NCBI GenBank assembly: GCA_000002445.1
Contig: CP000068.1
Span: 1,472,001 to 1,536,000 of the forward strand
Direction: 5' to 3'
From: Trypanosoma brucei
Lineage: Eukaryota
Length of the DNA stretch: 64,000 nucleotides
The number at the start of each line of letters is the position of its first letter. Position 1 is the first letter of the stretch. Of the stretch, positions 1,243-60,409 are shown one piece after another. The position numbers and the translations under genes are program-made. The notes under the pieces were generated by a model. The model had not been told where the DNA came from. It saw only the letters and a list, made by a program, of their open reading frames with translations, and searched no databases.

Positions 1243-2045
1243 TTTAGTCTTTATTATTATCATTATTATCATTAATGTTATTACTGCTCTCATTATAATA
1301 TTCGTATATACACACTCACAACACTTTCCTATTATTATTATTACTATTTATACTATTACTGCTCTTATTATAATATTCGTATATACACACTCACAACACT
1401 TTCCTATTATCATTATTATCATTAATGTTATTACTGCTCTCATTATAATATTCGTATATACACACTCACAACACTTTCCTATTATCATTATTATCATTAA
1501 TGTTATTACTGCTCTCATTATAATATTCGTATATACACACTCACAACACTTTCCTATTATCATTATTATCATTAATGTTATTACTGCTCTCATTATAATA
1601 TTCGTATATACACACTCACAACACTTTCCTATTATTATTATTACTATTTATACTATTACTGCTCTTATTATAATATTCGTATATACACACTCACAACACT
1701 TTCCTATTATCATTATTATCATTAATGTTATTACTGCTCTCATTATAATATTCGTATATACACACTCACAACACTTTCCTATTATCATTATTATCATTAA
1801 TGTTATTACTGCTCTCATTATAATATTCGTATATACACACTCACAACACTTTCCTATTATTATTATTACTATTTATACTATTACTGCTCTCATTATAATA
1901 TTCGTATATACACACTCACAACACTTTCCTATTATTATTATTACTATTTATACTATTACTGCTCTTATTATAATATTCGTATATACATACTCACAACACT
2001 GTTCTATCATTATTACAATTATAACTATTATAACCCTAAACAATA
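1243..2045 (-). repeat. VSG-associated 70-bp repeat array, about 10.5 units of ~75 bp. Two unit variants occur in the order A B A A A B A A B B.
   Basis: Direct tandem units read 'tattat(c)attattat...gctctcattataatattcgtatatacacactcacaacactttcc'. The reverse complement matches the canonical T. brucei 70-bp repeat core GTGTTGTGAGTGTGTATATACGAATATTATAAT plus a TAA/TRR tract. Confidence 0.88.
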
Positions 2046-15561: not shown

Positions 15562-15611
15562 AATTATCTGAGTAGAAGATTCCAAAATTTTTCTAAATTT
15601 CCTAATTTTTT

Positions 15612-18600
15612 TTTCATTGTGCATTTATTGTGCTCGTGCTTCGGTAGGGTCGTTACTGCTCCTGTGGCTCTGCAAACCAGAAAGGGACGTTGAGCGCAAC
15701 GGGGATCCCATCCTCGCTTTATTGAATGAAACTTTGAAGCTGATTGACTTATCCGCAGTTTCAGCTTCAAGGGGACGTTTCCTCATGGTTTCTGCAGTGC
15801 ACACCCATAACGACTTCGCTGCCGCAGAGGTGTGGTAGGCGAAATCCAACTCCGTGGGCGACCAGTGCCTCTTCACGGCTTGAGTGGGCCCAGATGTTGA
15901 CTCTAAGATTGGGGGGAGGGGGCAGATGGGCTCTCTAGGTTTAAGAGCTCCTTCAGGAAGCTGGCTAGTTGCACACTGAAGAACACTTCCTCGTCCTTCA
16001 GGGTTTCCAGACCGTGCTTTTCCCTTAGTGCTCGCAAGCTTGGGCACTGAAAGAGGTGCACTGCAGACTCCTTACACTTCACCTTCACTGAGTTATACTC
16101 AGCTTTCTTCTTCAGTTGGCCGTGCTTCGCGTGCAGGTGTATCGTGAGGCACTGCTTGACTGTGCACTTCATTTGGCAGTATGGACACTGGAGTGACCTT
16201 TGCAAAAGAGGTGTTACCGCTACCGTGCGGTCCTTCAGCTTCCGTTTCACTGCCGTGGCGTGCTCATGATGTGTGCGCGTGTGTCAAATCAGTGAGCACC
16301 ACTGCTTGTACGCCCTGCTGCGTCTATCATACACATAGTCCATTCCCTCTTTTCCTTCTGTGTGGCGGCCCACCCGAGGACGCTTCTGCGGTCTCTCCCC
16401 ATTTTCCCTTCCTGCTGACTCCAATGACCCACTCACCTTACTCTTTGCCTGAGCTTATGCTTTCACTACCTTTCGCTTTGCCTTCTCTTGTGGCTGAGGA
16501 CGCAATGACTCGTCGTGACCCGGGTGCTTTTCCAGCATGTGTCGCAGCAACCATCTGTAATGATATTGCTTTCTAAAAATGGAACACGCCACTGTAACCG
16601 ACTGCTCTGCCATGTTAGAGTCTTCCGAGTTCGTGTTCGAGGTTGGTTCGCACTTGTGCCTGGTGGGCCATGTCTTGCTTTTGAGGACGCGTTGGCACCT
16701 GTAGCATACAAATTCCTTTTTATCCTGCTCCTCCTGCTCTGCATCGCCATCACTGTCGGACGCGTCCTGTGACTCTATGGCGCTGCGCCTTAACTGCTTT
16801 TCCGGGTTTTTCTGCAGCCACGCGTGTACAGTGTACTTTTTCGCACACCAACGCCATTTGAGTGCGTTGCCATTATCGGCCCCATCTTACTCCACTGCTG
16901 GCACTCTATCCGGAGGGTGCTGTGCCATATACTCCACGAGTAGCCCACACCGCTCAAAGACATCACCGCACACATGACATCTGTAACCATTCTTATGCGT
17001 CTGCACCGCACCCTTAGCTTTCTTGGTCAGTGCTAATGCATAATTCCTCCCCAGACCATGAATCTTCACTAGGTGCACCACGTCAGGCTTTCTCCGCCCG
17101 CAAACCACGTTGAACAATCGGCAAGTGATCTGGTCGTTGCTCCTTGTCGCGATTCCAGGATATGGTGCGTTCGCATTGTCCGATGCTTACTCCGCCCCCC
17201 GGGCGCTCCTCTGCTGTGTCGCTGCGTGGTTCCTGCGTGTCGCACCGTATGCATCCAAGCTGGTCCGTCTTGCGTGTGAGCACCCTGTTAAGCGATCCAA
17301 AATGCTTCGAAGTGCCTGTTCTGAAGTGCGCCATCAGCGTCTCACCCAGACGTACCAGCCTTGTGTGCTTCGGTGCGGCCCGAACGTAGTCGAGTAGCGC
17401 ACTACGATGCGTACGCGGCATCCGGACCTCCTTGAAGGCCTTGTATACCGCATTCCCGACCTTCCTCTCCACACACGTCACTATGTCAGTGATCCATGCT
17501 GGATACGACTGCAGCTTTGTGTTTCCCTGCTCAACTGCCTTTTCAGCAGCTTCATCGCGCGGCACCCCGCAGTGTGAGAACACGAAATGGAAGTTGACGG
17601 ACACAAGAAGCCGCACAATACTCAAGATAAGATCCCAAATGCGTCCCAGAATCGAGCCCTCCACAACTTCAGGGCCAGTGCTCAGCGCCATCAACAGCGA
17701 AATTAAATCCGTGAGGGTCACCACTCTCGTTCTGTGCGTCTTGCTTAGCTCCATGAAATCCGCTAGCCTCTTCAACCCCGCCTCCATCGCCGCACATTCC
17801 GTGCGATAGCTGCAGGATGGCGACCCAACTCCCAGGGCAACCTTCTTCCGCTTCCTCTCTTTCGGGTACACAAGGGCACCTGCGCCTGAAGAGACGTCCA
17901 GCACCACGGACCCGTCCGTCCACACCTGGTTATCATAGTCCTTGAACAACTGTACCTGCCGCATGGTGTGCACCTTCTTGTCCCTCCCCGGCGCACCCGC
18001 TTTGAGGCCGCCTGGCTCGTTGGTGTTAAAGTGGACGCACGTGGCCATCCGCAACACCGTCGCATCGTGTGGATTCTCAGGGCCATCAATGGTGTTTTAC
18101 GGACGCTGTACCGTCGCAAGCATGACATGGGCTGGATGCTCAGGCGGGAATATGCTGTTCGTAATTTTTAATTGCGTTGGGCACTCTGCTTTCAGGCGTA
18201 GATAGCATGCCAAGGCTCTCAGGTGCGCCATATCATTTATAAACTTTAGCCGAGCTTCTCACACGGCATCCTCCCGATTGGCTGCCTTGGGAATACCCGT
18301 CATTATGTGTGCTGCCTGTGCCTGCACCCTCTCTAGCCTCTCATGATCCGACAGCGAGGAATCGGACCACCATGAAGCAATGCCGTAGAATATCTTAGCC
18401 CGGACCAGCACTAGGTAGAATGCTCGCAGTTTCTCCCTGTCTGGGCCCCATTCTGGCGACACCACTGCCCTAAGCTGCATGAGCCGCGTGTCTGCCGCTG
18501 CCTTCACGCTCCGTGCATGCTTGCTCAAACCCTTGTGCGGCTGCACGGTAATACCGAGCAGCTTCGGTGTGTACACTTCCTTCAACACAGTCTCTCCAAT

Positions 18601-20887
18601 CCTCAGGTAAAGCAGGTTTGTGTCCCGCGCACCGAACAGTGTGTACTCAGCTTTCCCCGCTGACCAATTTGTGACTCAACTCAGTCCTTGTTGAACGGTT
18701 CGCTGGATTGCATTCAGGTCAGAGCTCGTGCATACTATTGTGAGGTCGTTCGCAAAGAAAACGTGCTGCAACCCAGGGATGCAGTTCAGCCGCTTGCTCG
18801 GCGAATCCACCTTGACAATGAACAGCAGTGGACCATGCACCGAGCCCTGAGGGACCCAGCATGTGAGGTGTATGTTCTCAGACAGCATATTGCTCGCCCC
18901 CACCCGCGCGGTGCGACCCTGCAGGAAGCCCGCAATTCACGCCACCAGATGCTTCTCAACTCCAAATGTCTCTAGTGCCTTAACCATGCAGCCGTGATCA
19001 ACCGAATCAAAAGCGCGCGCATAGTCAATAAATACAGCTGCTGTCTTCTCACCGTCCCTCCTCCGCCGCACTGCGCTTGTCACCTGCATGAGCGTGTCCA
19101 GCGTCGACTGCGCCGGCATGAAGCCTGCTTGCTGTGGCTGCAGATTGTCTTCAATGCAGTTCCTAACACGACGTGCCACAATGTGCTCCATCACTTTGCA
19201 CAGCGTGCTGATGAGAGTGGCCGGCCGAAAGGACGCGGTACTGCTAGCTGGCTTGCTCGGCTTAAGCAGCGGGACTGTGATGCCGTGCCTCCACTTGGCT
19301 GGTACCCTCCCCGCGCGCAGACTGCAGATGAACAGTCGCAGCGCACACTTTTTGGCTACTCATCCTAGCTGCTTCAGCTCCTCTCAGTGGATTCCATCAT
19401 CGCGCGCCGCCGTGCCAGAATGCAGCTCACACAGCGCAACTTTCAGCTCTGACTCGGTGACCGGCCGGAACGCGCTCCGTCTGGTGCTGGGTATCTTCAT
19501 TTCTGGCGCATGTGGTGCCTTCGTTGACCTGGCCTTGTACATGTTGACCAAAGTTTGTGCTTACTGGCGCTTTGTCAACCGATGGCCATTCACCACCAGC
19601 ATTGGCGAAGTCAACGACCGCGGCGCATATACCGACTTCACCAGGTTCCAGTTCGCCGAATCCGTGGTCGCCGGCTTCGACACATTTTCCTTCCACCAAC
19701 CCAGCGCCGTTTCAGCCAGCGCTTTCTTCCTCCAGCGAGTCAGCCCGTCCAGATTCGTCAGCCCCTGTGTCCAGAACGGTAACGCTACGCCCTTGCCCTT
19801 GGGAATTGTCCTCTTTGCGGCCATTCGGATGCCTCATGTCACCGCCTCGTCGAGGGCATCCGCGCCCTTGTCCGGCCTCTTCATTCCTCTGAATATGAAC
19901 TCGTCACTCAATTTTCTAAACTCCTGTCACCTCGCTTTGTTCCGTGCATACAGTGTACGTGTGGGCTTGGGGGGGGGGGCAATCACGTCTAGGCAGGTGC
20001 CCCACGAACACATCGAACGTGATCTAATAATGATCACTGTGCGGGCTCAGTGTGTATGCCAAGTTAGAGATCTCGCGCAGCCTCCACACAACGTGATGTC
20101 CGGCGACGATAGTGCACCCGTTCCCGGCTGCCTCCTGGTGATCGATCCGGTATTCGCAACTTTCAGATCGCTCTGCACGCACCAGTTGACTACGCACTCT
20201 CCCTTGTCGTCGCTCGGACGAAACGGATCCCACAACACGTGGTGTGAGCTCACGTCCGCTTCTGCTACCAATGGCCCGCTTTCTACCGCTAATTGTTTCA
20301 ACTATGCTTTTGAATTCATCGATTTTCTAGGAAAATAAGCTGAAGCGCCTGCCAGGTTCACAGCAGCAGAAAATCGCAGCGTCGCTGTCACTTTTTCTGG
20401 CACTTCCTTGTCCATCTTTCACACCCCCACTCCCACCCCTGTGCGGTGTTTTTGCCACAACTACATGCTGCTATCCGCCTATTTGAAGCGCAGCACACTC
20501 CACCGACGCTAGGAGTGTCTCCTGCAAGAGACAAAATAAAACCATATCCTCATGAATCTTCCTCTTCATGACAACCCGCTTCGACTGGAAGAAACCCCTA
20601 AATTTCCACTGGTTTCCACGAATAACGGGAGCAAGATTCGTCTCAACATCTTCACTAAGTAGTAGTATAAGCCTTTTTATCCCAATCGAGGTAAGGTTGC
20701 ACGTGCAGAGGAGCAGTCTAATATATTGCTTCACCCTAGAGTGCCGATGCTGCTACATACTTCTTCTCTGGTCGCCGAAAGCCCCCTTTCCACCCCAATC
20801 ATGTTAAACAGGGCATAATGCGGGCGCTTGTCTTCCTCCTGGATAAAGTACTAGACCCCGGCACCACATTGAGGTGACCGGCATCAC
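15612..20887 (-). mobile_element. ingi: ingi non-LTR retrotransposon, about 5.3 kb. The copy is degenerate and its single ORF is broken into many frames.
   Basis: Minus-strand ORF fragments encode RT motifs ('AAVFIDYARAFDSVDH', 'WVPQGSVHGPLLF', 'FANDLTIVCTSS'), an RNase H ('VWTDGSVVLD...') and two C2H2 zinc fingers ('CPYCQMKCTVKQCLTIHLHAKH', 'YRCHVCGDVFERCGLLVEYMAQH'). A poly(A) tail shows as T9 at 15612-15620 on +. The 5' end near 20887 reads, on the minus strand, 'CCATGGTGATGCCGGTCACCTCAATGTGGTGCCGGGGTCTAGTAC...'. Boundaries are approximate. Confidence 0.8.
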
Positions 20888-44074: not shown

Positions 44075-44400
44075 ATGCGTTTTTATATCCAGTTGCTACA
44101 CTATATTTTCTTTGCTTCTTTTTCGTGTTATGTACCTGTTTCTGTGCCTGAAATGGTAATTCCATTTGGTTCGCACACTGTACTTTGTCTTTCCCTCATA
44201 TGCTCCTCCATCATCTCCTTCGCATACGTTGATGATTCCCATTGTTGTGTTTGTGTTAGAAACTTAGTATATTCCATATTTCTCTCTGTGTTACCTCTAG
44301 AGACGCATTTAACACTTTTATCTTACCTGTTTGCTACTATTAAGCTTTTTCCATTGTGACAATTGTCTCTATGTTGTCCCTCAATTGATTCTTTACCACT
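44075..44400. repeat. Conserved cassette element distal to the 70-bp repeat.
   Basis: It has 'tccatttggttcgcacactgtacttt'. Confidence 0.5.
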
Positions 44401-44497
44401 TGTCTCATTATAATATTCGTATACACACTCACAACACTCTCCTATCATTATTATTATCATCATCATCAATATTTACTATTACTATATTATAATTTCC
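44400..44497 (-). repeat. Single 70-bp repeat.
   Basis: 'cattataatattcgtatacacactcacaacactctcctatcattattattatcatcatcatc'. Confidence 0.75.
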
Positions 44498-44718
44498 TAC
44501 AGCATCTGTAAAATCAACAAAATAGCAAAATATTTCAAAATATATTTAATTTGGACACCATATTACCAGCTCCTTTTCACTAATAGGCTACTTCCGTTAA
44601 AAAATTAAGAATTTCCAAAATCTTAAACATTTCGCAAAAGTTGAACAAAAACTGTCAAATTTCATAAATTTCACAAATTTTATGAATTTTACAAATATTC
44701 TTAGAATTCTCACAGTCC

Positions 44719-44875
44719 CTATAATTTTCTGAAATTCACAAAAGCAGAAACAATAAGAGCCAATTTCTTATTGACGAGGAAACTGAAATCTTTGCATTCT
44801 GTTCCTTCCCATTTGCAGTTTCCATTCTTTCTCCAATCAGCTGCTTTTTTAAATCCTTCGCATTCTTTGTTGGGG
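44719..44875 (-). pseudogene. VSG: VSG 3' stub, the last ~50 codons of the C-terminal domain plus the GPI signal.
   Basis: It encodes '...PNKECEGFKKAADWRKNGNCKWEGTECKDFSFLVNKKLALIVSAFVNF'. Unrelated GC-rich/A-rich sequence abuts its 5' side. Confidence 0.75.
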
Positions 44876-44884
44876 GATCGTGGC

Positions 44885-45740
44885 TGAAGCTGCATAAGCT
44901 TTGCCGGCTCTATAATGGTGCTCGCCACATCGGCGATGCTCCGGCGGGTGGAGTAAAAAATCTTTTATATCCGCCGTAGCGGAGCCTCCGGCTGATGCAA
45001 CCGAAAAAAAGAACAAAAAATGAATTCCAAAAATTTCAAAGGTTAAAAAAGGCCATAAAATGGGGAAAAACGCGGAAGCGAAAAAAAAACGGTAAAAAAC
45101 AAAAAATGATTTAAAGTAACGAAAAAAAATGTCGCCGTGGGGGCTAATAAAAAAATTACAAAACTCAAAAAAATTTTAAATTGAATGTGTAACAAAAAAA
45201 TGATTAAAAAATGGTGAAGTAAAAAACATTGAAATTCAAATTAAAAAACTCGAAATGTTTTTTAAAAATCAAGAATGTTAAAAAATTTTAACACTAAAAA
45301 AAATAAAATCAATAACAAAATTGAAAGCCGCTTGTAGAAAAGCCAAGACAAAAAACAAAAAAAACTCGATGACACAAGATATAAACAGCCAAAAAAACCG
45401 TAGAAATTTGTCAAAAAGAGGGGGGAATTGAGTCGGTGGCGTTGGTGAAAAAAAATGTCAAAAGTGTAAAAATCAAAAATTTCTCGAAAAGGAACACAAA
45501 AAAGAAAAATTAAACGCCGCTGCTAAGCTGCAGACTCATAGGGGTTAGGGTGCGCATAACAAAGCAGCCGTCGCTTCATTAAAATTTTGAAAAAGATCTA
45601 AAGCCGCGCTGTTTCGCTGCTAGAAAAAAAAATATTAGTATCAGGGGAAATAAACATAACCCTAAGCCTGGAAACCCTCCCTAATCTACCTACCAACTTC
45701 GTACCTCCCTACCCACCTCCTCTCCTGCCTCGCTGCACAA
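44885..45740. repeat. A-rich low-complexity block with GC-rich islands, ending in a degenerate telomere-hexamer tract (CCCTAA-like on +, about 45655-45735). It is paralogous to 54235-55325.
   Basis: Long A runs are interrupted by short GC words. It shares 'ggggttagggtgcgcataacaaagcagccg' with 'gggttagggtccgcataacaaaagagccgg' at 54950. The tract 'aaccctaagcctggaaaccctccctaatctacctacc...' lies immediately downstream (VSG sense) of the 3'UTR of VSG 45925-47543. Confidence 0.6.
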
Positions 45741-45841
45741 AAAATTCAAAAAGAAAAAAATGGAAAATATTCTTTTATTTGTTAGAAAAAAATTTACAGA
45801 ATCAGAAACTTACTACCAGCTAACACATACAATATCCTCGA

Positions 45842-45857
45842 CTGATTTTAGGTGTTA
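45842..45857 (-). promoter_or_regulatory. VSG 3'UTR 16-mer, a perfect match.
   Basis: 'gtgttaaaatatatca'. Confidence 0.7.
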
Positions 45858-45924
45858 AAATATATCAAATAGCAAGAATTTATCAAAAATTTTTTTAATA
45901 AAAAGAGAGGGGAAAAATTTGTTT

Positions 45925-47543
45925 TAGAAAAGCAAGGCCACAAAGGCAGCAGAAACCACGCTGAGGACGAATTGATTGTTTACTAGAAAACTGTAATCAT
46001 GGCATTTATAACCTGATTTGTCAGATCCATCAGTATTTTCTCCTTTCCAGCCACAAACTTTGGTAGTCTTACCTTCATTGGCCTTCTCACAGGTCGCCTG
46101 GTCTTTATGATCGGAGCATTTTACACCCTCGTCAGTTGATCCTGCAGTTTGAGTTTAGGTTACAGGGACGCCGTTTTTAGTGGCTTTGGTGGCATTGTAT
46201 TTCCACTTCTTATCTGTACTCTCTGTTTCATCATAAGTACAGAAATCCTTGGAATCGCAGGCATTTTTGTCCGCGTGGTGTGCTGCACACTCTTTCTGAG
46301 TCTGTGAGATTCTGTCGTCGGTTACTGACTTTGTTGCAAAATTTTTAATTTTGTCTTGCTGTTCAAGTAGCTCAAATGCCGCTTTTGCTTGGTAGTGAAG
46401 GAGTATTAACTCCAATTGCTTGGTATTAGTCTGAGAAATTAGCTTTGGGTCTTCTTGAGCTGTTGGGCTTACCAGCTCTTTGGGAATCGTCGCTGCTTGC
46501 ATCTCCTTCCATACTTTTTTGAGGCTGAGGTCTTTGTCGGTGGCGTAATGGTCTTTGATGGCGGCGTCTACCGTTGTTTGGTCTGTTTTCGCGTCGTAAT
46601 GTCCTGCTTGTTTTAAGAAAAAAATTTTGACGGCTCTTTTGAACTCTGTGGATGTCGTTATATCGGCGCTGTCTGGGTCGATCTTTTTTGCGGCAGTTAA
46701 AAGGCCGCTTGTTCTCCAGTTGTTCTGCGCGACCTGCGCTGCGTGCATGTCTTTTGGTGTCGTCCCTGCGTCTGCGGCGTCGAACGTCCCGAAGGGTGCG
46801 TGTTTGATCGAGTCGTCGCTTTGTATTAGTGTCAGGTACCCGGCTGCCATGGTTATATCCTTGTGGTTGCCGGCTGTTTCTACGAGACTGCCTGCCGCGG
46901 TTTTAAAGATGTTGCATGTGGGCGTGCCGGCCATCCGGGCCGCTGCTGAATGGTCGCTTGTGCTTGGTTTAAATAGCTTGTCTGGGTCGCCGCTATATGT
47001 TTTTGGATGTACTTTGCCTGTTGTGTCGGTTGCTAGTGCACATTGCGCCAGTGTGGTTGCCCCTTCTACTGTTGTTGTGCCTGCGATTTTCTCCAGGCAG
47101 CCGTGTGTGCCTGAGGTTGAGTAGCTGTCCGCTGCGATCGAGATGAATTCGGCTAGGCGTCCCCTTACGAAAGAAGTAGCTTGCGCTGCTGCCGGTGCCA
47201 TTTTAACGCCTTGAGTGGTTGTGTCAGTTGGCATTGCCGTTTTGGCCGCTATGCCCGCTATTAGTGGTAAAAGCTTCAGCCTCTTGGCCGGTTCCGCCTG
47301 GGAGGCGTAAATGCTTAGTTGAAGAGCGAGCTTTCGATTGTCTTCACTGTTTTCTAAGCTCTGCGCTAGGCTCTGTGACTGTTCGTTGAAGACCGCTGCT
47401 AGATTCGTTGTCATCTCACATATGGGCGTCCAAGTGCCGTGCGTTAACGCCTTGCCCGCGTTTCCGGTCGCCAGCGCTGATTGCACGAGCACGGATAACG
47501 CCATAAGGCCTAGCCGTAAGGTGAACTCTTGCTTACTTAGCAT
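45925..47543 (-). pseudogene. VSG: VSG, full length and co-linear, but with one in-frame TAA (at 46155-46157) about 66 codons before the natural stop.
   Basis: The 462-aa ORF has a B-type N-terminus 'HGTWTPICEMTTNLAAV'. After the TAA the same frame continues '*TQTAGSTDEGVKCSDHKDQATCEKANEGKTTKVCGWKGENTDGSDKSGYKCHDYSFLVNNQFVLSVVSAAFVALLF*'. Confidence 0.8.
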
Positions 47544-52156: not shown

Positions 52157-53496
52157 AGAACTTATTCAAGAGTAATTTAAGGTCGAGCTATAAAACAATG
52201 AGGTATTTATTTTTACAAATTTAGGTTTTTATAGCCTTTTCGACATCAATTTAAAAAATGTATTTTTTGTAAACAGAGACTGCCAAATAATGTTGTTTCT
52301 GAAGGATTTAGTGTAAATGGAGATAAATGCCTGACACATTAAAATGTGCAAATTACGATAATAAATCATTGTATTTTTCATATGTTAAAATTGTGAAAAT
52401 ATTGGTTTTACACACATTGATCAATGAATATCATTACATAAATTTTGTTTTTCGAGAAATTTATACTTTTACTTACAATTTAAATTGGTCTATTTATACA
52501 CAATCTATGTTCTTCATTTATACCTTCAGTCCGTTAGCTCTAGAAAATAACGTGCATATTTCTAGAACTGAAAATTTTAAGGTTATGCTTTTAAGTGCTT
52601 TTTTTTCGTGATAATTATTCAACATGTACTGGTGAAATAACCATTTAGCACCGCTATTTCGTCACGGTGGCTGTTAGGCTCCTGTTTATTATCTTTATTC
52701 TGGCTTTTTGGTGGCTGCTTTCGCTATCCTTGTACGCTGCAATTTTTTTAATTATCCCTATTAAATAAGGTTTGCTCTGGGTATTAATATTTATCCCTGG
52801 ATCAGTGAATTTCGTTAATTTCTCACCTGTATTCCAGTGTTAAACTGATACATTTTTAATGTTAATTATAAACTTCATTGAGGGTCTCTAAAACTTTATA
52901 TATGTGTTATTTTACGAAGATTACACGTTCTTGTTTTTTTGTTGTTCACAGTAATCCATTAGTTGTCCTTGATTTAAAATAATTCTTCCAATAATATTAT
53001 ATTGTTTCCAACAAATACTGTCCGTTATTGCTTGATATAATGAGAATATTACTTACATATTACCTTATCCATTCCTACTGTTGTCCTTCTGGTTTCTCTT
53101 GTTCACAGCTGGACATTAGGATCCTCCAATAAATTAAAAGCCGCAATAGTTATAACATCTGGAGTAAAATCAATTCATTTTTTTGAGAAAAATATCTGTC
53201 TCTCCAGTGTAAACAGTAGAAGCCTCCGTTTCTTCTGAAAATCCTCTGCTATTCCAGCCTTCAACAACTTTTCTGCTATATCAGGTACAAACATTGCTGT
53301 TTGTCTTTCTGACCCTTTTCTCCCACGTATTTCTTCTCTGTCCAGAGCTGCTGTAGATACAGTGCTTTTATTTCCTTTTATACGTTTAGTGATTTCTACA
53401 TGCATCCTTATAGTTTATGTCGCCACAATTTCAACTCTCGTTTCAGGACAGCTATCACTGTCCATTCAAAAGGCTATATGCACTCACAACGCACTT

Positions 53497-53795
<299 letters not shown>

Positions 53796-54094
53796 ATGGG
53801 AAATAAAAATAAATTAATATATTACTCATTTTAATATACAATCACCCCACTGGTGTACACACATGCCTCTGTCATACCAAAGTTTTACAAGTGAAGTTTT
53901 TCAAAATTTTCAATGAATTGCACAACTTGCAAAGGGTTGACAAAAAGTGTTATAATATATCATATTTAAAAAACATTTAAATTTTTTTTCAAAATAGCAA
54001 TTTTTATAAATTTTTATAAGTCTCATAAACTTGAGAAAAAGCTTTTACAAATGATTCGTAAAACTTTTATGCTAGAAGAAAAATTACAAGCAAA

Positions 54095-54235
54095 AAAGAG
54101 GTCTTAATTAGAACAGAATTTATTCTTGAGTTTTTGTAGGGTTTCTATCATTTCCACCAGTTTGCGCTTCTTTTCCTACTTCCTTCTTGATTTCCTCACT
54201 TAATGTGCACATTTTTCCCTAGACGGCTTTTAGGT
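54095..54235 (-). pseudogene. VSG: VSG 3' stub, about 45 C-terminal codons, degenerate.
   Basis: The reverse complement encodes '...GKMCTLSEEIKKEVGKEAQTGGNDRNPTKTQE*'. A VSG-type 3'UTR with the near-perfect 16-mer 'gtgttataatatatca' lies at 53937-53952. Confidence 0.6.
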
Positions 54236-55325
54236 TAAAAACGTACCTCCGGAAGTTGAGCACCCTTGGCCGGGGTGTGCCAGCGTCAGATGGCGCTGCC
54301 GAAGTTTAATTGCTAATTATAATTATCAGCTGTTCCCCAATATGAGTATTTTTAAATTTATTTCCTCTTTAAAAGCAAATCGTTTCCCGCAGCGAAAGTG
54401 CCACGCGGCAGCGTTTTTGAAAAAAAAAAATTTGCTAGCCGCGTGCACCGCAAAACGCAAAGCTGAAATTCACGAAAGTAAAATAAACATAGGCGTAACG
54501 ATGTGAAGCTGAAAATAAAAAGAAAAAAGAAGCGCGGATAGCTCCAGTGGAAATAAGTGCCAGCCTTGTGCTTAAATAAAAAAAAAGAGCTGCATCACTA
54601 AAAAAATACAAATTTTTTTAGTGATATGAAGCAATCCAGGACGGAGGTGTGGAAAAAAAATTAATTAGCAGTCAGAGGAAAATTAACCCGATAACCCGAA
54701 ACACTCTAACCCTAACCCTGACCCTGACCCGAACCCGCTAACCCGAAACAGCCTGACCCGAAACACCCGCGCAAAAATGGGCAAAGAAAAAGTTGAGTGC
54801 TAAAACAAAAAAATTTAAAAAATCAAATCGCAAAAAAAAAATAAAAAAATCAAAATAAAAAACCAAAAACCGCGCAAAAACCGAAAATTAAAAGAAAAGA
54901 TTAAAAAAAATTTAAAAAATTGGAGCTTCGCGGGGTCGTGGGGGGGGGGAGGAGGGTTAGGGTCCGCATAACAAAAGAGCCGGTGCACGACTAAAGAAAA
55001 AAAAATTTAAAAAAACACAAAAAAATAAATTAAAAGCCAGCGCAACACAAAACTGCCGCTGCATCACTAATATGAAAAAAAGAAATTAAACGTCAGTGAA
55101 AAAAAGGAGGATCTGCTGCATCACTAAAAGAAAAAACTAAAACAATCCGCGATGGAGGTGTGAGTTGAAAAAAAAATTAATTAGCAGGAAGAGAGAAAAA
55201 TTAACCCTAACCGAGTAACCCTAAGCCTAATCCTAATCCTAACCCTAACCCTAACCCTAACTAACTAACCTAACCTAATTAACCACCCCCCCCATTCCTA
55301 CCTACCCCCCCCCCCACTTCCACAA
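54235..55325. repeat. A-rich low-complexity block containing an internal ~520-bp tandem duplication and two degenerate telomere-hexamer tracts (CCCTAA/CCCTGA on +, about 54700-54775 and 55205-55320). It is paralogous to 44885-45740.
   Basis: 'gctgcatcacta' occurs three times (54588, 55058, 55116). Each copy is followed by '...ggaggtgtg(g/a)...aaaaattaattagcag...aaaattaaccc' and then by 'taaccctaaccctgaccctgacccgaacccgctaacccg' in the first unit or 'taaccctaagcctaatcctaatcctaaccctaaccctaaccctaactaac' in the second. G-runs lie at 54930 and C-runs at 55290-55315. Confidence 0.65.
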
Positions 55326-55435
55326 AAAAAAACGGGAAAAGAAGGGAAAAAATTTTAAGTTATCAGAAAAAATTTCTAGACAATCAGACAGTCAACTTAC
55401 AAAAAACAGCTCAATTTTTTCGGCGGAATTTAAAA

Positions 55436-55451
55436 GTGTTAAAATATATCA
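55436..55451 (-). promoter_or_regulatory. VSG 3'UTR 16-mer, a perfect match.
   Basis: 'gtgttaaaatatatca'. Confidence 0.7.
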
Positions 55452-55508
55452 GAAAGTTTTTCAAGGAGCAAATTTTTAGCAAATTTCTTTTAAAAAGAGG
55501 GGAGGGAT

Positions 55509-56969
55509 TTAAAAAAGCAAAAATGCAAGCAAAAGAGGGGCCTTGTTAATGACAAAAGAATTGCTTCCTGTGGTGTTTGTGTTTCCAGTTTTGCTATCTT
55601 TCTCTCCTCCCTCTTTCTGAGCTGCTTCTTTCTCTTCATCACTCAATGTGCACTTTTTGCCATCCTCTTTCGTTTTATCATAAGTGCATCTGTTATTCGT
55701 GTCACAATCACTTTTTTCTTTCAAGTCGTTACAAGTTTGTTCTGCGGATTTTACATCCTGTTGCTTTTCAGTTGCTTGTGCTTGTAACTTAGCAACTTGG
55801 TCCGCCATTTGTTGCTTGTGTTTCACCTCCAGTATTTTGTAAAAAGCCAAAGTTACTTGTAAGATGCCAGCATCGTTTATTTCTTTGATTTTCGTATTGG
55901 TAGTGGCGCTTGGATCGACGTTGATCGCGTCTGCCTCATCTAGCTTGTTCAAAAAGCTTTTCACCTTTTCACCAGCCTCTCCAAAGTTCTCCTTGATTAG
56001 CACTTCGGCTTTGTCCTCCGCTTGTTTGCCGGCTTGTTTGCCGTACAGCTTGTGAAGTAGTTTCGTTAGGTGTCCTTTGAGTTTGCCCGTTGTTACTGCT
56101 GCTTTGATTATCGCTTCTGGTTCATGTGCGAGCTGCTGCGTTATGGCCGCCCTTATCGTGTCTGCGTCATTGAAAGCGAGCGTTAGGAGGTCGTCTGCAT
56201 CTCTGTTGGTTTGCTTTTTCAGGTTCTGCTGGCTCGTCCGTGTCACCCGGTTTGTTGTGGCTATTTTGAATAGCCCATATCCAAAGTTTACGGCCGTGGC
56301 TCCGGTTACGAAGGCTCCTGTGCCTGCACCTGCGAAGTTGACTAGCCCGCACTTGGTTGACACACTGGTTGCCATCCCGTTAGTTCCGGTGATTTCGTCG
56401 ATAGTCTTGAATCCAGTCGCGCTGATTATATCGGCGTCTAACGTTTCGCTTGGGGTTTTCTTCATAGTTTTTGGTCTCTGCTCGCAGCCAGCTGTTGCTA
56501 TGTCGGCTGTCTTGTCCTCGTCGGTGTCGGTGTCTGCTAGACAGTATCCTCCGCTGTGCTTCGCGCTTTTGAATACCTGGAGGCTTGCTTCAATGCCGCC
56601 GGTTAGCTCCTGAGTCGTCGCAGTTGCTTCGAGTGCTGTCTTGATGAAGTTGCTTCTCTGCCGTTCGCTTGCGTCCGCTTCTTCGTAAATGGCTGCGGCT
56701 GCTGCTGATAGCAGTGCCGTCGTTTCGACGTCGGACTGCGTAGTTGCCGCGTACAGGTTTAACTTCGCCGCTGTTCGCTCTGCTGCTGTTATCGCGTCCT
56801 GCAGGTTGCTTTCGTGTGTGTACGCCATTACTGGGACTTTCCGCAGTTCTTTGGCTATCGCACACGGTGGTTTCCACGTTTTGCCAAGCAATGGTTCGCC
56901 GGTCGCTGAGGCCGTGTTGGCTGCCCACTTCGTCATTAGTATCATTAGAGCTGTCGTGGCAACGGACAT
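55509..56969 (-). CDS. VSG: Variant surface glycoprotein, an intact 486-aa ORF with a B-type N-domain.
   Basis: It has a signal peptide, 'GKTWKPPCAIAKELRKV', and the C-terminus '...CNDLKEKSDCDTNNRCTYDKTKEDGKKCTLSDEE...TGNTNTTGSNSFVINKAPLLLAFLLF*'. Confidence 0.88.
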   Translation of the reverse strand: MSVATTALMILMTKWAANTASATGEPLLGKTWKPPCAIAKELRKVPVMAYTHESNLQDAITAAERTAAKLNLYAATTQSDVETTALLSAAAAAIYEEADASERQRSNFIKTALEATATTQELTGGIEASLQVFKSAKHSGGYCLADTDTDEDKTADIATAGCEQRPKTMKKTPSETLDADIISATGFKTIDEITGTNGMATSVSTKCGLVNFAGAGTGAFVTGATAVNFGYGLFKIATTNRVTRTSQQNLKKQTNRDADDLLTLAFNDADTIRAAITQQLAHEPEAIIKAAVTTGKLKGHLTKLLHKLYGKQAGKQAEDKAEVLIKENFGEAGEKVKSFLNKLDEADAINVDPSATTNTKIKEINDAGILQVTLAFYKILEVKHKQQMADQVAKLQAQATEKQQDVKSAEQTCNDLKEKSDCDTNNRCTYDKTKEDGKKCTLSDEEKEAAQKEGGEKDSKTGNTNTTGSNSFVINKAPLLLAFLLF

Positions 56970-58537: not shown

Positions 58538-58672
58538 ATTCGTATATACACACACTCTCAACAACTTTCCTATCATTATCATCATCATCATTATCATTAT
58601 TACTGCTCTTATTATAATATTCGTATATACACACTCACAACACTCTCCTATTATTTTTTCATAACACCAACT
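58538..58672 (-). repeat. 70-bp repeats, about two units.
   Basis: 'ttataatattcgtatatacacacactctcaacaactttcctatcattatcatcatcatcattatcattattactgctcttattataatattcgtatatacacactcacaacactctcc'. Confidence 0.8.
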
Positions 58673-58959
58673 AATATACATAACATTAACAAAATGAACA
58701 GAATTAGAGTAGCATTCATTTTTTATACCCTATAACGTTACTATGTACCTATGTAGGTCATTATACACACTTTTCAATAATATCATTATTTTCATTAAGT
58801 TGCAATTTTTATCAAAAAGTGTTAAAACATATCAAATTTTAGTAAATTTAAAAATTCATCTAGATAGAAAACTTTTATAATTTTCAAATTTTCATAAATT
58901 TCATGATATTGAACGAGTATTTTTTAAATTATATCAAAATCACAAGGGTGGCAGTGGCA

Positions 58960-60409
58960 GTCCGAGTTAATTTCTTATTTGAAAGAAAACTAAAGACTTT
59001 GCACTTTTTTCTATCTCATTTGCAACCATCTTTGCACTCGGACCCAGTTTTTTTTCCGGAGCACTTTTTACCCTCTTTCGGTGCTTGTCCTGCTTCTACT
59101 GCTGTGTTTTCTGTCCTTCTCCATCTTTAGGTTTGCAGTGGTTTCCTGTTGTTTTTGTAGTGCTATCCCATTTGGACTTATTTTCTGTGCAGTTTGAGTT
59201 TGTTGTGTGGATATTACAGTGCTGTTGTTGTGCAACTGCTGGGTAGTTTTCAGATGCAGGAGGTTTTTCCAGTAGAAAGCGTTTGATTATCGCCATGGCT
59301 CTTTTTGGGTAGGAGCTCAGGACTGCGTTAGTTTTTTTCTGTATATTCGCTGTTTCATCGGCTTTCTTTAGTTTAGCTGCCGCCTGTCTAAGGTTCACCT
59401 CCCATGCTATTGCTTCTGGCATATCGCCGTTTTTGAATGGCGAGGATTTGGTGAAGTCCGCGCATGCGGTGTTCTCGATGTTCCTGCAATGATGTGTACC
59501 GGTGGTGCTGCCGACTACCATGGCCATGGCTCCGCCGTTCCCTGTTGTTTTGAACATGCCTTTTAGTGCCGCAATTTTTCTTTCTATTAGCTCCTCTGTC
59601 AGTTTTTCCGGTGGGTACTTGGCGCACACGCTGTGGATGGTGTCGTAGCCTGTTTTGTGCGACGTCGCGTCGTTTGCGGTTAGTTGCGGCGTCGCGCCAA
59701 TCCCACAGACATCAGTGTTTTGTGTCGCACCGAACTTGGAGCACACGCATGTCACAGTCGCGCAGAGCGCCTCCCCGACTGCTGGCAACGCGCAAAGGTC
59801 TTCTGTGTTGCCGGTCTTCGTTATTTTACACCTTTTGCTAGCGCTGTCATCGAGTGTCGGTGAGTTGTACGCTGCTTGGTTGAGGTCGGTTCTGATTTGC
59901 GCTTCCAAATTTTCTAAATTAGGTTTGTATTGTGTGTTGAATTCCTCTTGTAGCGCCGTTTTCTCTGCTATTAGTGTTTGTACTGTCAGCCGCACCGCTG
60001 ATGCTGCTGGTGTGTTTAGCAATCCGGTGGGTATTCTACTTTCTGGGCTAGTGGTCTCCTTTGTGGTGGCCTGGATGTTTAGATGCGCCCACTTTTTGAA
60101 CTCAGCTTCGCACTGTGGTTGATTGGTCTGCTCTTGACAGGCCGCTTTCTCTCCCATGTCCGCTTTTCCTTTGTTCGGGTATTTAGCACACCATTGACTT
60201 TCAGCTAATGCCATGTTTAATACTTCTAGCGCTTCAAGTGCTGCGGCGGTGGTTTCCAGCTTAGGAAGCGCCGACATGTCGGCGTCTGTGAGTTTGATTA
60301 GTTGACAGAGAGCTGAAAGCTCCGCTAGGTTCTGCGCCTGGTCGTCGGTTGCGTGGCTGCTTTGAGCCATCACGCATATTACTACGACGGAAAATATCCC
60401 TCGCTGCAT
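58960..60409 (-). pseudogene. VSG: VSG with a C-terminal-domain frameshift near 59096. The N-terminal 437 aa are intact.
   Basis: ORF 59096-60409 has the A-type 'LAELSALCQLIKLTDAD' and ends '...NHCKPKDGEGQKTQQ*'. The remaining C-terminal-domain coding sequence (58960-59100) is out of frame. The near-perfect 16-mer 'gtgttaaaacatatca' lies at 58819-58834. Confidence 0.78.

What the first reader, a model, noticed from the sequence alone, without database searches (positions are those of the whole stretch)
44719..45925. Stub / A-rich block / interstitial telomere hexamers / VSG architecture, first of two copies
Read in VSG sense, this region runs VSG (45925-47543), its 3'UTR with a perfect 16-mer, then about 15 degenerate TTAGGG-like hexamers (CCCTAA on +, 45655-45735), then ~750 bp of T-rich low-complexity sequence punctuated by short GC-rich islands, then only the last ~50 codons of another VSG (44719-44875) with its own 3'UTR and 70-bp repeat. 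Telomere repeats directly 3' of a VSG 3'UTR are the arrangement found at telomeric VSG loci. Here the locus is internal. It looks like a telomere-proximal VSG that was internalised (telomere healing or fusion), or a segmental conversion from a telomeric donor that ended inside the resident VSG's C-terminal coding region. The same architecture recurs at 54095-55509 with shared sequence words, so it is a repeat family or a duplicated event rather than chance. I do not recognise the A-rich filler as any described T. brucei element.
Basis: partly seen in the sequence, partly recalled or inferred. Interest (0 to 1): 0.72.

Follow-up and report, generated by a model that had tools for sequence, protein, structure and literature searches.

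The report
Telomere-type VSG flank inside array
Two surface-antigen (VSG) genes inside a silent Trypanosoma brucei gene array still carry the kind of downstream sequence normally found next to a chromosome end, each followed by the last 150 bases of an older VSG; they look like leftovers of telomeric gene cassettes copied into the array, which is a neat relic but not a new kind of element.

Summary
The architecture is real and occurs twice. It runs VSG, 3'UTR with a perfect 16-mer, TTAGGG-like tract in VSG sense, 0.8-1.0 kb T-rich spacer with GC islands, then about 150 nt of a VSG C-terminal stub with its own 3' flank and 70-bp repeat. The window is T. b. brucei TREU927 chromosome 5. Copy A's telomere-like tract is weak (2 exact hexamers, not about 15). 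Copy B has two tracts, one with 5 exact CCCTAA.

The A-rich filler itself does not align between copies. The copies do share a unique 22-mer (GGGTTAGGGTsCGCATAACAAA) and a distinct 3' flank class that leaves the ordinary array-type flank about 35 nt after the 16-mer. The stubs carry array-type flanks.

Published work places TTAGGG-like repeats and a 0.2-1.6 kb T/GT-rich spacer between telomeric VSGs and the true telomere. The filler is therefore most likely that known spacer.

Best reading: telomeric VSG cassettes were imported into array slots by ectopic conversion, homologous upstream in the 70-bp repeat and non-homologous downstream in the resident gene's C-terminal region. Telomere fusion, phased A-tract bending and recent duplication are not supported. 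Genome-wide copy number could not be tested.

This is a new member of a known kind, of modest interest.

The parts
45924..47543 (-). VSG_A, an A-type VSG pseudogene with a single in-frame TAA at 46155-46157
   Evidence: ORF 46155-47543 matches PF00913 at E=3.8e-36. The C-terminal domain continues in the same frame after the stop and ends ...SVVSAAFVALLF*.
45740..45923 (-). 3'UTR and downstream flank of VSG_A, with a perfect 16-mer at 45852-45867. About 35 nt past the 16-mer it switches to the 'telomere-type' flank class shared with copy B.
   Evidence: A-B flank score is 47, against 14-21 for either versus ordinary array flanks.
45655..45735 (-). Degenerate TTAGGG-like / G-rich tract in VSG sense. 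On + it has 2 exact CCCTAA, then a CCTACC-like C-rich run.
   Evidence: 22 of 60 positions near a telomere rotation; background 1.05 +/- 2.5. It aligns with copy B at 55234-55273 (z=4.8).
45542..45571 (+). Inverted telomere word with a conserved flank: GGGTTAGGGTGCGCATAACAAAGCAGCCG
   Evidence: The 22-mer GGGTTAGGGTsCGCATAACAAA occurs only here and at 54954. None were found in 100 shuffles. Identity is 26/29.
44876..45654 (-). T-rich spacer in VSG sense (A-rich on +) with short GC islands, including a GC-rich 125 bp next to the stub
   Evidence: No helical phasing of A tracts. No similarity to the rest of the window except copy B's island.
44719..44872 (-). Stub A: the last ~50 codons of a VSG C-terminal domain plus GPI signal
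   Evidence: Translation. Homology to other VSG 3' ends stops at 44872.
44400..44718 (-). Array-type 3' flank of stub A, followed by a 70-bp repeat (core at 44426)
55509..56969 (-). VSG_B, an intact A-type VSG of 486 aa, identical to XP_845141.1 (TREU927 chr 5)
   Evidence: Eight near-identical cDNA-derived proteins share its cluster.
55316..55508 (-). 3'UTR and telomere-type flank of VSG_B, with a perfect 16-mer at 55436-55451
55195..55315 (-). Main TTAGGG tract in VSG sense (5 exact CCCTAA on +, plus variants) and the adjoining G-rich run
   Evidence: 56 of 60 positions. G-quadruplex motif at 55286-55315.
54954..54983 (+). Inverted telomere word with a conserved flank, GGGTTAGGGTCCGCATAACAAAAGAGCCG, preceded by a G-run
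54685..54765 (-). Second, more degenerate telomere-like tract (TAACCCGA-type units)
   Evidence: 46 of 60 positions.
54589..54684 (-). Unit preceding tract 2 (GCTGCATCAC...GGAGGTGTG...AAAATTAATTAGCAG...AAAATTAACCC). It is duplicated at 55115-55194 before tract 1.
   Evidence: (z=24).
54248..55194 (-). Whole T-rich spacer of copy B in VSG sense, including the sub-parts listed above
54095..54247 (-). Stub B: a degenerate C-terminal remnant of a VSG (GKMCTLSEEIKKEVGKEAQTGG..., with stops)
   Evidence: Homology to other VSG 3' ends stops at 54247.
53481..54094 (-). Array-type 3' flank of stub B (16-mer with 1 mismatch at 53947-53962), then a 70-bp repeat with (TAT)58

Best explanation
Each block is the ordinary 3' flank of a telomere-proximal VSG. 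That flank consists of a short 3'UTR, a G-rich/TTAGGG-like tract about 200 bp past the stop codon, and a T-/GT-rich spacer that at a real chromosome end leads into the telomere. Here the flank sits inside a silent array.

The most likely history is as follows. A VSG cassette at a telomere (an expression site or a minichromosome) served as donor in an ectopic gene conversion into an array slot. The upstream junction was homologous, in the 70-bp repeat. Copying ran past the donor's 3'UTR into its telomere-type flank. The downstream end was then joined without register, probably by microhomology, to the resected resident gene. That left the resident's last ~150 nt of coding sequence, its array-type 3' flank and the next 70-bp repeat. 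This happened at least twice, independently and not recently.

Shown: the anatomy, the two flank classes, and the array-type nature of the stubs. Inferred: the telomeric origin, the direction of transfer and the type of junction.

Today the blocks are probably inert relics. They may still bind telomere-repeat proteins weakly.
For: - Anatomy and orientation of both copies.
- Both VSGs have a 70-bp repeat upstream (48408/48495; 58632). The stubs have none of their own.
- The 130 nt after the 16-mer form a class of their own. A vs B scores 47, and either vs seven ordinary array flanks scores 14-21. Stub B's flank groups with the ordinary ones, and stub A's 3' flank aligns to ordinary 3' ends.
- The stubs are no closer to their upstream VSG's own 3' end than to other VSGs. 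This argues against local slippage or duplication.
- Literature: GGGTTA-like sequence about 300 bp downstream of VSG2, with the true telomere further on (PMC11229358).
- Literature: VSG-to-telomere distance of 200-1590 nt in 17 expression-site clones (PMC2567434).
- Literature: ectopic conversions move VSGs between subtelomeres (PMC3467770).
- Protein accessions XP_845139/40/41 rise with window coordinate, so the window follows the record's orientation. If the array lies on the right arm, the G-strand points to the core. That fits an imported cassette better than a fossil of this chromosome's own end.
Against: - No bona fide telomeric T. brucei flank could be fetched, so homology of the spacer to real telomeric spacers is untested. 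Primer sequences from two Lister 427 expression-site spacers do not match, though these are locus- and strain-specific.
- The A-rich filler is not alignable between the two copies.
- A conversion would normally resolve in the homologous C-terminal/3'UTR region. An out-of-register join therefore has to be assumed twice, at a similar distance (~150 nt) from the stop.
- The right-arm location is my inference, not a tool result.
- Copy A's tract is only weakly telomere-like.
Confidence: 0.6

Rival explanations
1. Fossil chromosome ends. The array grew by terminal addition: a chromosome ending in VSG_B (later VSG_A) lost its telomere, and the eroded end invaded another array at microhomology in a C-terminal region. 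Break-induced replication then copied onward to that chromosome's end. The old telomere-type flank was left interstitial.
For: - It gives the same anatomy: flank, then a stub with no 70-bp repeat of its own.
- No long perfect telomere repeats remain at the spacer/stub junction, as expected after erosion.
- Break-induced replication to chromosome ends is the dominant repair outcome reported after a break in the active VSG (PMC12137147).
- All downstream cassettes have the same orientation.
Against: - It needs VSG sense to point toward the chromosome end. Accession order, together with my inference that the array is on the right arm of chr 5, puts VSG sense toward the core.
- The sequence distal to the telomere-like tract is conserved between copies and within copy B. 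That is not expected if unrelated DNA was added there.
Confidence: 0.2
2. An array-resident dispersed repeat: a spacer element that merely contains telomere-like words and spreads with neighbouring VSGs by block duplication. It would have no telomeric history.
For: - The two copies share a flank class, an internal order (island, spacer, tract, G-rich run, UTR) and a unique 22-mer.
- Copy B contains an internal duplication.
Against: - Only 2 of about 17 cassettes in 64 kb carry it.
- Position, orientation and size match the published telomeric VSG flank.
- The stub needs a separate explanation.
Confidence: 0.12
3. Telomerase-mediated break repair. Telomere repeats were added at an internal double-strand break, with read-through past the template boundary of telomerase RNA, as in vertebrate TERC-ITS. 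This would explain GGGTTAGGGT followed by the conserved sCGCATAACAAA.
For: [quoted passage not shown] - The vertebrate precedent appears as PMC8537989 in the results.
Against: - The telomerase RNA sequence flanking the template could not be obtained.
- Rfam gave no hit.
- The island is only 1.5 repeats long.
- It does not explain the main tract's fixed position about 200 bp after the stop codon.
Confidence: 0.05
4. Assembly or cloning artefact, or a chance low-complexity resemblance.
For: The region is homopolymer-rich and repeat-rich.
Against: - The window is the TREU927 reference chromosome 5. From my own knowledge this was assembled from Sanger-sequenced clones, not noisy long reads.
- The same ordered architecture occurs twice with diverged sequence.
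- Telomere-like density is far above background.
Confidence: 0.03

Closest known systems
[quoted passage not shown]
   Same: - It starts right after a VSG 3'UTR with the 16-mer.
- TTAGGG-like repeats in VSG sense lie about 200-300 bp past the gene.
- It has a T-/GT-rich spacer.
- Total length is 0.8-1.1 kb, within the published 200-1590 nt range.
   Different: - It does not end in a telomere. It ends in a VSG C-terminal stub inside an array.
- Sequence identity to real telomeric flanks is untested.
Interstitial telomeric sequences (ITS) of other eukaryotes
   Same: Telomere hexamers at a non-terminal site, degenerate, and probably a by-product of repair or recombination.
   Different: - They are not isolated. 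They come as part of a larger conserved flank attached to a gene.
- There is no head-to-head fusion signature.
- No orthologous empty site is available for comparison.
Standard array VSG cassette (70-bp repeat, VSG, conserved 3' end, next 70-bp repeat) and VSG C-terminal gene fragments in the TREU927 archive
   Same: - The 70-bp repeat upstream, the 16-mer, and head-to-tail orientation.
- C-terminal fragments are a known class of archive entries (my recollection of Marcello & Barry 2007; the paper was not readable here).
   Different: About 1 kb of telomere-type flank lies between the 3'UTR and the next cassette. The fragment lacks its own upstream repeat.
'Residual ES sequences from recombination' seen as weak RAP1 ChIP peaks in subtelomeres (PMC10686619)
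   Same: The same idea: pieces of telomeric expression-site sequence left inside subtelomeric arrays.
   Different: That paper gives no anatomy. Whether its peaks correspond to blocks like these is unknown.

Membership tests
Telomere-proximal VSG 3' flank | Lies directly downstream of a VSG with the conserved 3'UTR 16-mer | tested here: met
   Perfect 16-mers at 45852-45867 and 55436-55451, 58-60 nt after the stop codons.
Telomere-proximal VSG 3' flank | TTAGGG-like repeats in VSG-sense orientation a few hundred bp after the gene | tested here: met
   Tracts start about 190 nt (A) and about 195-225 nt (B) after the stop, G-strand in VSG sense. Copy A is weak.
Telomere-proximal VSG 3' flank | T-/GT-rich spacer of 0.2-1.6 kb | tested here: met
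   Spacers of 0.78 kb and 0.95 kb, 46-47% T in VSG sense. Published range, composition.
Telomere-proximal VSG 3' flank | Ends in a long perfect (TTAGGG)n telomere at a chromosome end | tested here: not met
   Both blocks end in a VSG stub followed by further cassettes. They are therefore relics, not functioning ends.
Telomere-proximal VSG 3' flank | Sequence homology to flanks of bona fide telomeric VSGs | not testable with these tools
   No T. brucei genomic DNA was reachable. Aline & Stuart 1989 is not held.
Interstitial telomeric sequence | Tandem telomere hexamers at an internal site, above chance | tested here: met
   Three tracts, the only ones in 64 kb. Whole-window CCCTAA count is not enriched (24 vs 22.7 expected), but the matches are clustered.
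Interstitial telomeric sequence | Fusion type: head-to-head TTAGGGn/CCCTAAn arrays | tested here: not met
   Only a 10-nt inverted word, 92-220 bp from the main tract.
Array VSG cassette | 70-bp repeat upstream and the next cassette's 70-bp repeat about 270-330 nt after the stop | tested here: not met
   The upstream repeat is present. Downstream, the block and stub are interposed, and the flank class differs from array flanks.
Telomerase-RNA-derived ITS (TERC-ITS-like) | Sequence next to the repeat matches telomerase RNA 5' of the template | not testable with these tools
   Only the 11-nt template could be retrieved. The flank sequence was not found.
Curved DNA from phased A tracts | A tracts spaced at about 10-11 bp | tested here: not met
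   Periodogram power is below that of token shuffles, and spacings are irregular at 6-120 nt.

The most novel reading that the evidence does not exclude
The interstitial telomere-type flank may still function. By offering TTAGGG-like sequence (and TRF/RAP1 binding) just downstream of an array VSG, it could let break-induced replication or conversion from the active expression site finish in telomere-like sequence. The array gene would then have a 'pseudo-telomeric', early activation probability.

VSG_B is intact and is represented by eight near-identical expressed cDNAs. It is probably Tb927.5.5080, recorded as an array gene already seen on day 10 of infection. That link is an inference, not verified.
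Probability: 0.12. Interest if true: 0.6.

Novelty: new member of a known kind. Interest (0 to 1): 0.3.

Why it matters
If the reading is right, these blocks are dated footprints of traffic from telomeres back into the silent archive. That direction of VSG flow is assumed but rarely documented at base level. The blocks also show that such transfers can end by a non-homologous join about 150 nt from the stop codon.

A genome-wide census of telomere-type flanks inside arrays would measure how often the archive is replenished from expression sites and minichromosomes.

A second, more speculative use concerns the order of VSG activation. Telomere adjacency is reported to dominate donor choice after a break in the active VSG (PMC12137147). 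Array genes that keep a telomere-type flank are therefore natural test cases for whether the flank or the chromosomal position matters.

Tried and rejected
- **Fetching T. brucei loci by exact protein look-up.** Three look-ups found nothing on record. A metagenome scan with the 22-mer gave 0 hits. Copy number outside the window is therefore unknown.
- **Whole-filler homology between copies.** Not above local-composition shuffles (z=0.8). MAFFT does not even pair the islands.
- **Phased A tracts / bent DNA.** No periodicity.
- **Cryptic tandem repeat in the filler.** TRF finds only short low-scoring runs.
- **GC-rich segments next to the stubs as decayed VSG or other coding sequence.** tblastx against the window gave nothing significant.
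- **Recent segmental duplication of one block.** None found.
- **Stub as a slipped copy of the upstream VSG's own 3' end.** It is not the closest relative.
- **Known RNA families.** 0 Rfam hits in the window.
- **Primers from Lister 427 expression-site spacers.** No match.
- **Telomerase RNA flank.** Not retrievable.
- **Literature.** Cross 2014, Marcello & Barry 2007, Wickstead 2004 and Aline & Stuart 1989 are not held. Full-text searches for interstitial or degenerate telomere repeats together with VSG found no T. brucei description of this arrangement.
Full report
**Context**

The window is a head-to-tail array of VSG genes and pseudogenes, all on the minus strand. Pfam finds PF00913, PF13206 and PF10659 in the long ORFs.

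Three intact proteins are identical to T. b. brucei TREU927 entries on a 1,608,198-bp contig, which is chromosome 5. They are XP_845139 (20939-22540), XP_845140 (48764-50365) and XP_845141 (55509-56969). The accession numbers rise with window coordinate, so the window follows the record's orientation.

70-bp repeat cores, all in the orientation that serves minus-strand VSGs, mark the cassette borders at 1313-1988 (ten copies), 12033, 15285, 30657, 34874, 37635, 40207, 44426, 48408/48495, 53481/53705 and 58632. An ordinary cassette runs from the 16-mer straight to the next 70-bp repeat within about 200 nt, for example 40403 to 40207 (for the stop-to-repeat span).

**Observation, copy A (read in VSG sense, descending coordinates)**

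- VSG_A runs 47543-45924. It is A-type (E=3.8e-36) with one in-frame TAA at 46155.
- A perfect 16-mer lies at 45867-45852.
- A G-rich, TTAGGG-like tract lies at 45735-45655. It has only two exact hexamers.
- A 0.78-kb spacer follows, 46% T in VSG sense, with short GC islands.
- The final ~50 codons of a VSG follow at 44872-44719...CKWEGTECKDFSFLVNKKLALIVSAFV*. Its similarity to other VSG 3' ends stops at 44872.
- An array-type 3' flank and the 70-bp repeat at 44426 complete the unit.

**Observation, copy B**

- VSG_B is intact at 56969-55509.
- A perfect 16-mer lies at 55451-55436.
- A G-run and a good TTAGGG tract lie at 55315-55195 (five exact hexamers).
- A 0.95-kb T-rich spacer follows. 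It contains a second degenerate tract at 54765-54685.
- A degenerate stub lies at 54247-54095, followed by an array-type flank with a one-mismatch 16-mer.
- A 70-bp repeat with (TAT)58 closes the unit.

**Above chance?**

Hexamers within one mismatch of a telomere-repeat rotation reach 22, 46 and 56 of 60 positions at these three tracts. They never reach 18 anywhere else in 64 kb, where background is 1.05 +/- 2.5. The architecture is real, recurs, and is not chance.

**How the two copies are related**

They are not recent duplicates. The window holds no long high-identity repeats apart from the 70-bp array.

The A-rich filler as a whole does not align better than shuffled sequence (z=0.8). Three things are nevertheless shared.

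1. The 130 nt downstream of the 16-mer form a class of their own. A vs B scores 47. Either vs seven ordinary array flanks scores 14-21. Ordinary flanks score up to 57 among themselves (alignment).
2. The telomere-like tract and the adjoining C-rich run align (z=4.8).
3. One non-low-complexity island, GGGTTAGGGTsCGCATAACAAA, lies inverted relative to the main tract and 92-220 bp from it. It occurs in both copies and nowhere else, with none in 100 shuffles.

The order island, spacer, tract, G-run, UTR is the same in both. Copy B additionally duplicated a unit of about 120-170 bp that precedes each of its tracts.

By contrast, the stubs and their flanks are of the ordinary array type. They are no closer to the 3' end of 'their' upstream VSG than to other VSGs.

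**What it is**

Published work describes this flank at chromosome ends.

- In expression site 1 a CCCTAA primer misprimes about 300 bp downstream of VSG2. [quoted passage not shown] The true telomere lies further on (PMC11229358).
- The VSG-to-telomere distance is 200-1590 nt in 17 expression-site clones (PMC2567434).

Position, orientation, size and composition of both blocks fit this description. I therefore read the 'unrecognised A-rich filler' as the known telomere-proximal spacer seen from the opposite strand. I could not test direct sequence homology to a real telomeric flank. No T. brucei DNA other than the window was reachable.

**How it got there**

The following are shown by the data:

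- Each block shares one slot with a VSG that has a normal upstream 70-bp repeat.
- Each stub lacks its own repeat and keeps an array-type flank.

The rest is inference. A telomeric cassette was copied into an array slot by ectopic conversion, a process known to move VSGs between subtelomeres (PMC3467770). Synthesis ran beyond the donor's 3'UTR into its telomere-type flank. The far end was sealed out of register to the resected resident gene, probably by microhomology.

Both stubs retain about 150 nt of coding sequence. From my own knowledge of the classic VSG conversion literature, this is the conserved 3' block where VSG conversions usually end. No tool result supports that point here.

**Rivals**

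- *Fossil chromosome end extended by break-induced replication.* It explains the same anatomy, and such replication is prominent in this organism (PMC12137147). It needs VSG sense to point to the chromosome end. The accession order, plus my unverified inference that this array is on the right arm, suggests the opposite. The conserved sequence distal to the tract is also unexpected under this model.
- *Array-resident repeat without telomeric history.* Not excluded.
- *Telomerase read-through origin of the island.* Not excluded.
- *Artefact.* Not excluded.

These last three are each less likely; see the rival list for the evidence.

**Rejected ideas**

- A-tract phasing.
- Hidden tandem repeats.
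- Coding remnants in the GC-rich segments.
- Rfam families.
- Telomere-telomere fusion. There are no head-to-head arrays.

**Novelty and interest**

The elements are known, and the idea that expression-site remnants lie in subtelomeres is in print. I found no base-level description of this particular arrangement, telomere-type flank plus C-terminal stub inside an array, in the searchable literature. Key older papers were not readable, so prior description cannot be excluded. I rate it a new member of a known kind, with interest about 0.3.

The most novel reading still open is that such flanks give array VSGs a telomere-like activation probability. VSG_B is intact and clusters with eight expressed cDNA products. 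It is probably the 'array' gene Tb927.5.5080, seen by day 10. That identification is an inference, and other early array genes exist.

Noticed in passing
window 15600-20500, minus strand: A GC-rich (53-58%) insert between VSG cassettes. It holds broken ORFs that look like a degenerate ingi-type non-LTR retroelement: a weak RNase H match (E=0.045), a C2H2-like CPYCQMKC...HLHAKHG motif, and an RT-tail-like YGIASWWSDSSLSDHERLERVQ.
   Followed up: partly
window 1249-2015: A tandem array of about ten 75-bp units of the 70-bp repeat (91-97% identical). All other cassettes in the window have only one or two copies.
   Followed up: no
window 53498-53673: A perfect (TAT)58 microsatellite inside the 70-bp repeat just downstream of stub B. 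This is the longest uninterrupted triplet run in the window.
   Followed up: no
window 55509-56969: VSG_B is identical to XP_845141.1. It clusters at >=90% identity with eight cDNA-derived VSG proteins (AGQ... 2013, ABQ52447 2007) that differ from it by 1-10 residues scattered along the protein. This silent array copy is therefore repeatedly expressed in infections.
   Followed up: partly
window 54687-54768, 55286-55315 (minus strand) and 54932-54962 (plus strand): G-quadruplex-type motifs (four G3+ runs) cluster in copy B. Only three other such motifs occur in the whole 64 kb, and copy A has none by the same rule.
   Followed up: partly
window 45575-45594 vs 53897-53917: A 21-nt stretch of filler A (TTCATTAAAATTTTGAAAAA) matches, in inverted orientation, a motif in stub B's 3'UTR (20/21, E=0.009). 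It could be chance in AT-rich sequence or a trace of an inverted 3'UTR fragment.
   Followed up: no
window 58600-59098 and 59096-60409: The B-type VSG ORF ending at 59096 stops at a TAG. Downstream of it the sequence still has C-terminal-domain character (Cys-rich, KCK-type motifs), so this gene looks like a pseudogene truncated by a premature stop.
   Followed up: no
window 44920-44961 vs 54631-54652 / 55146-55167: The GC-rich segment next to stub A contains GGCGATGCTCCGGCGGGTGGAGTAAAAAAT. This loosely resembles the CAATCCrsGAyGGAGGTGTG...AAAAAAAA unit that precedes both telomere-like tracts in copy B. It is too weak to call homology.
   Followed up: partly
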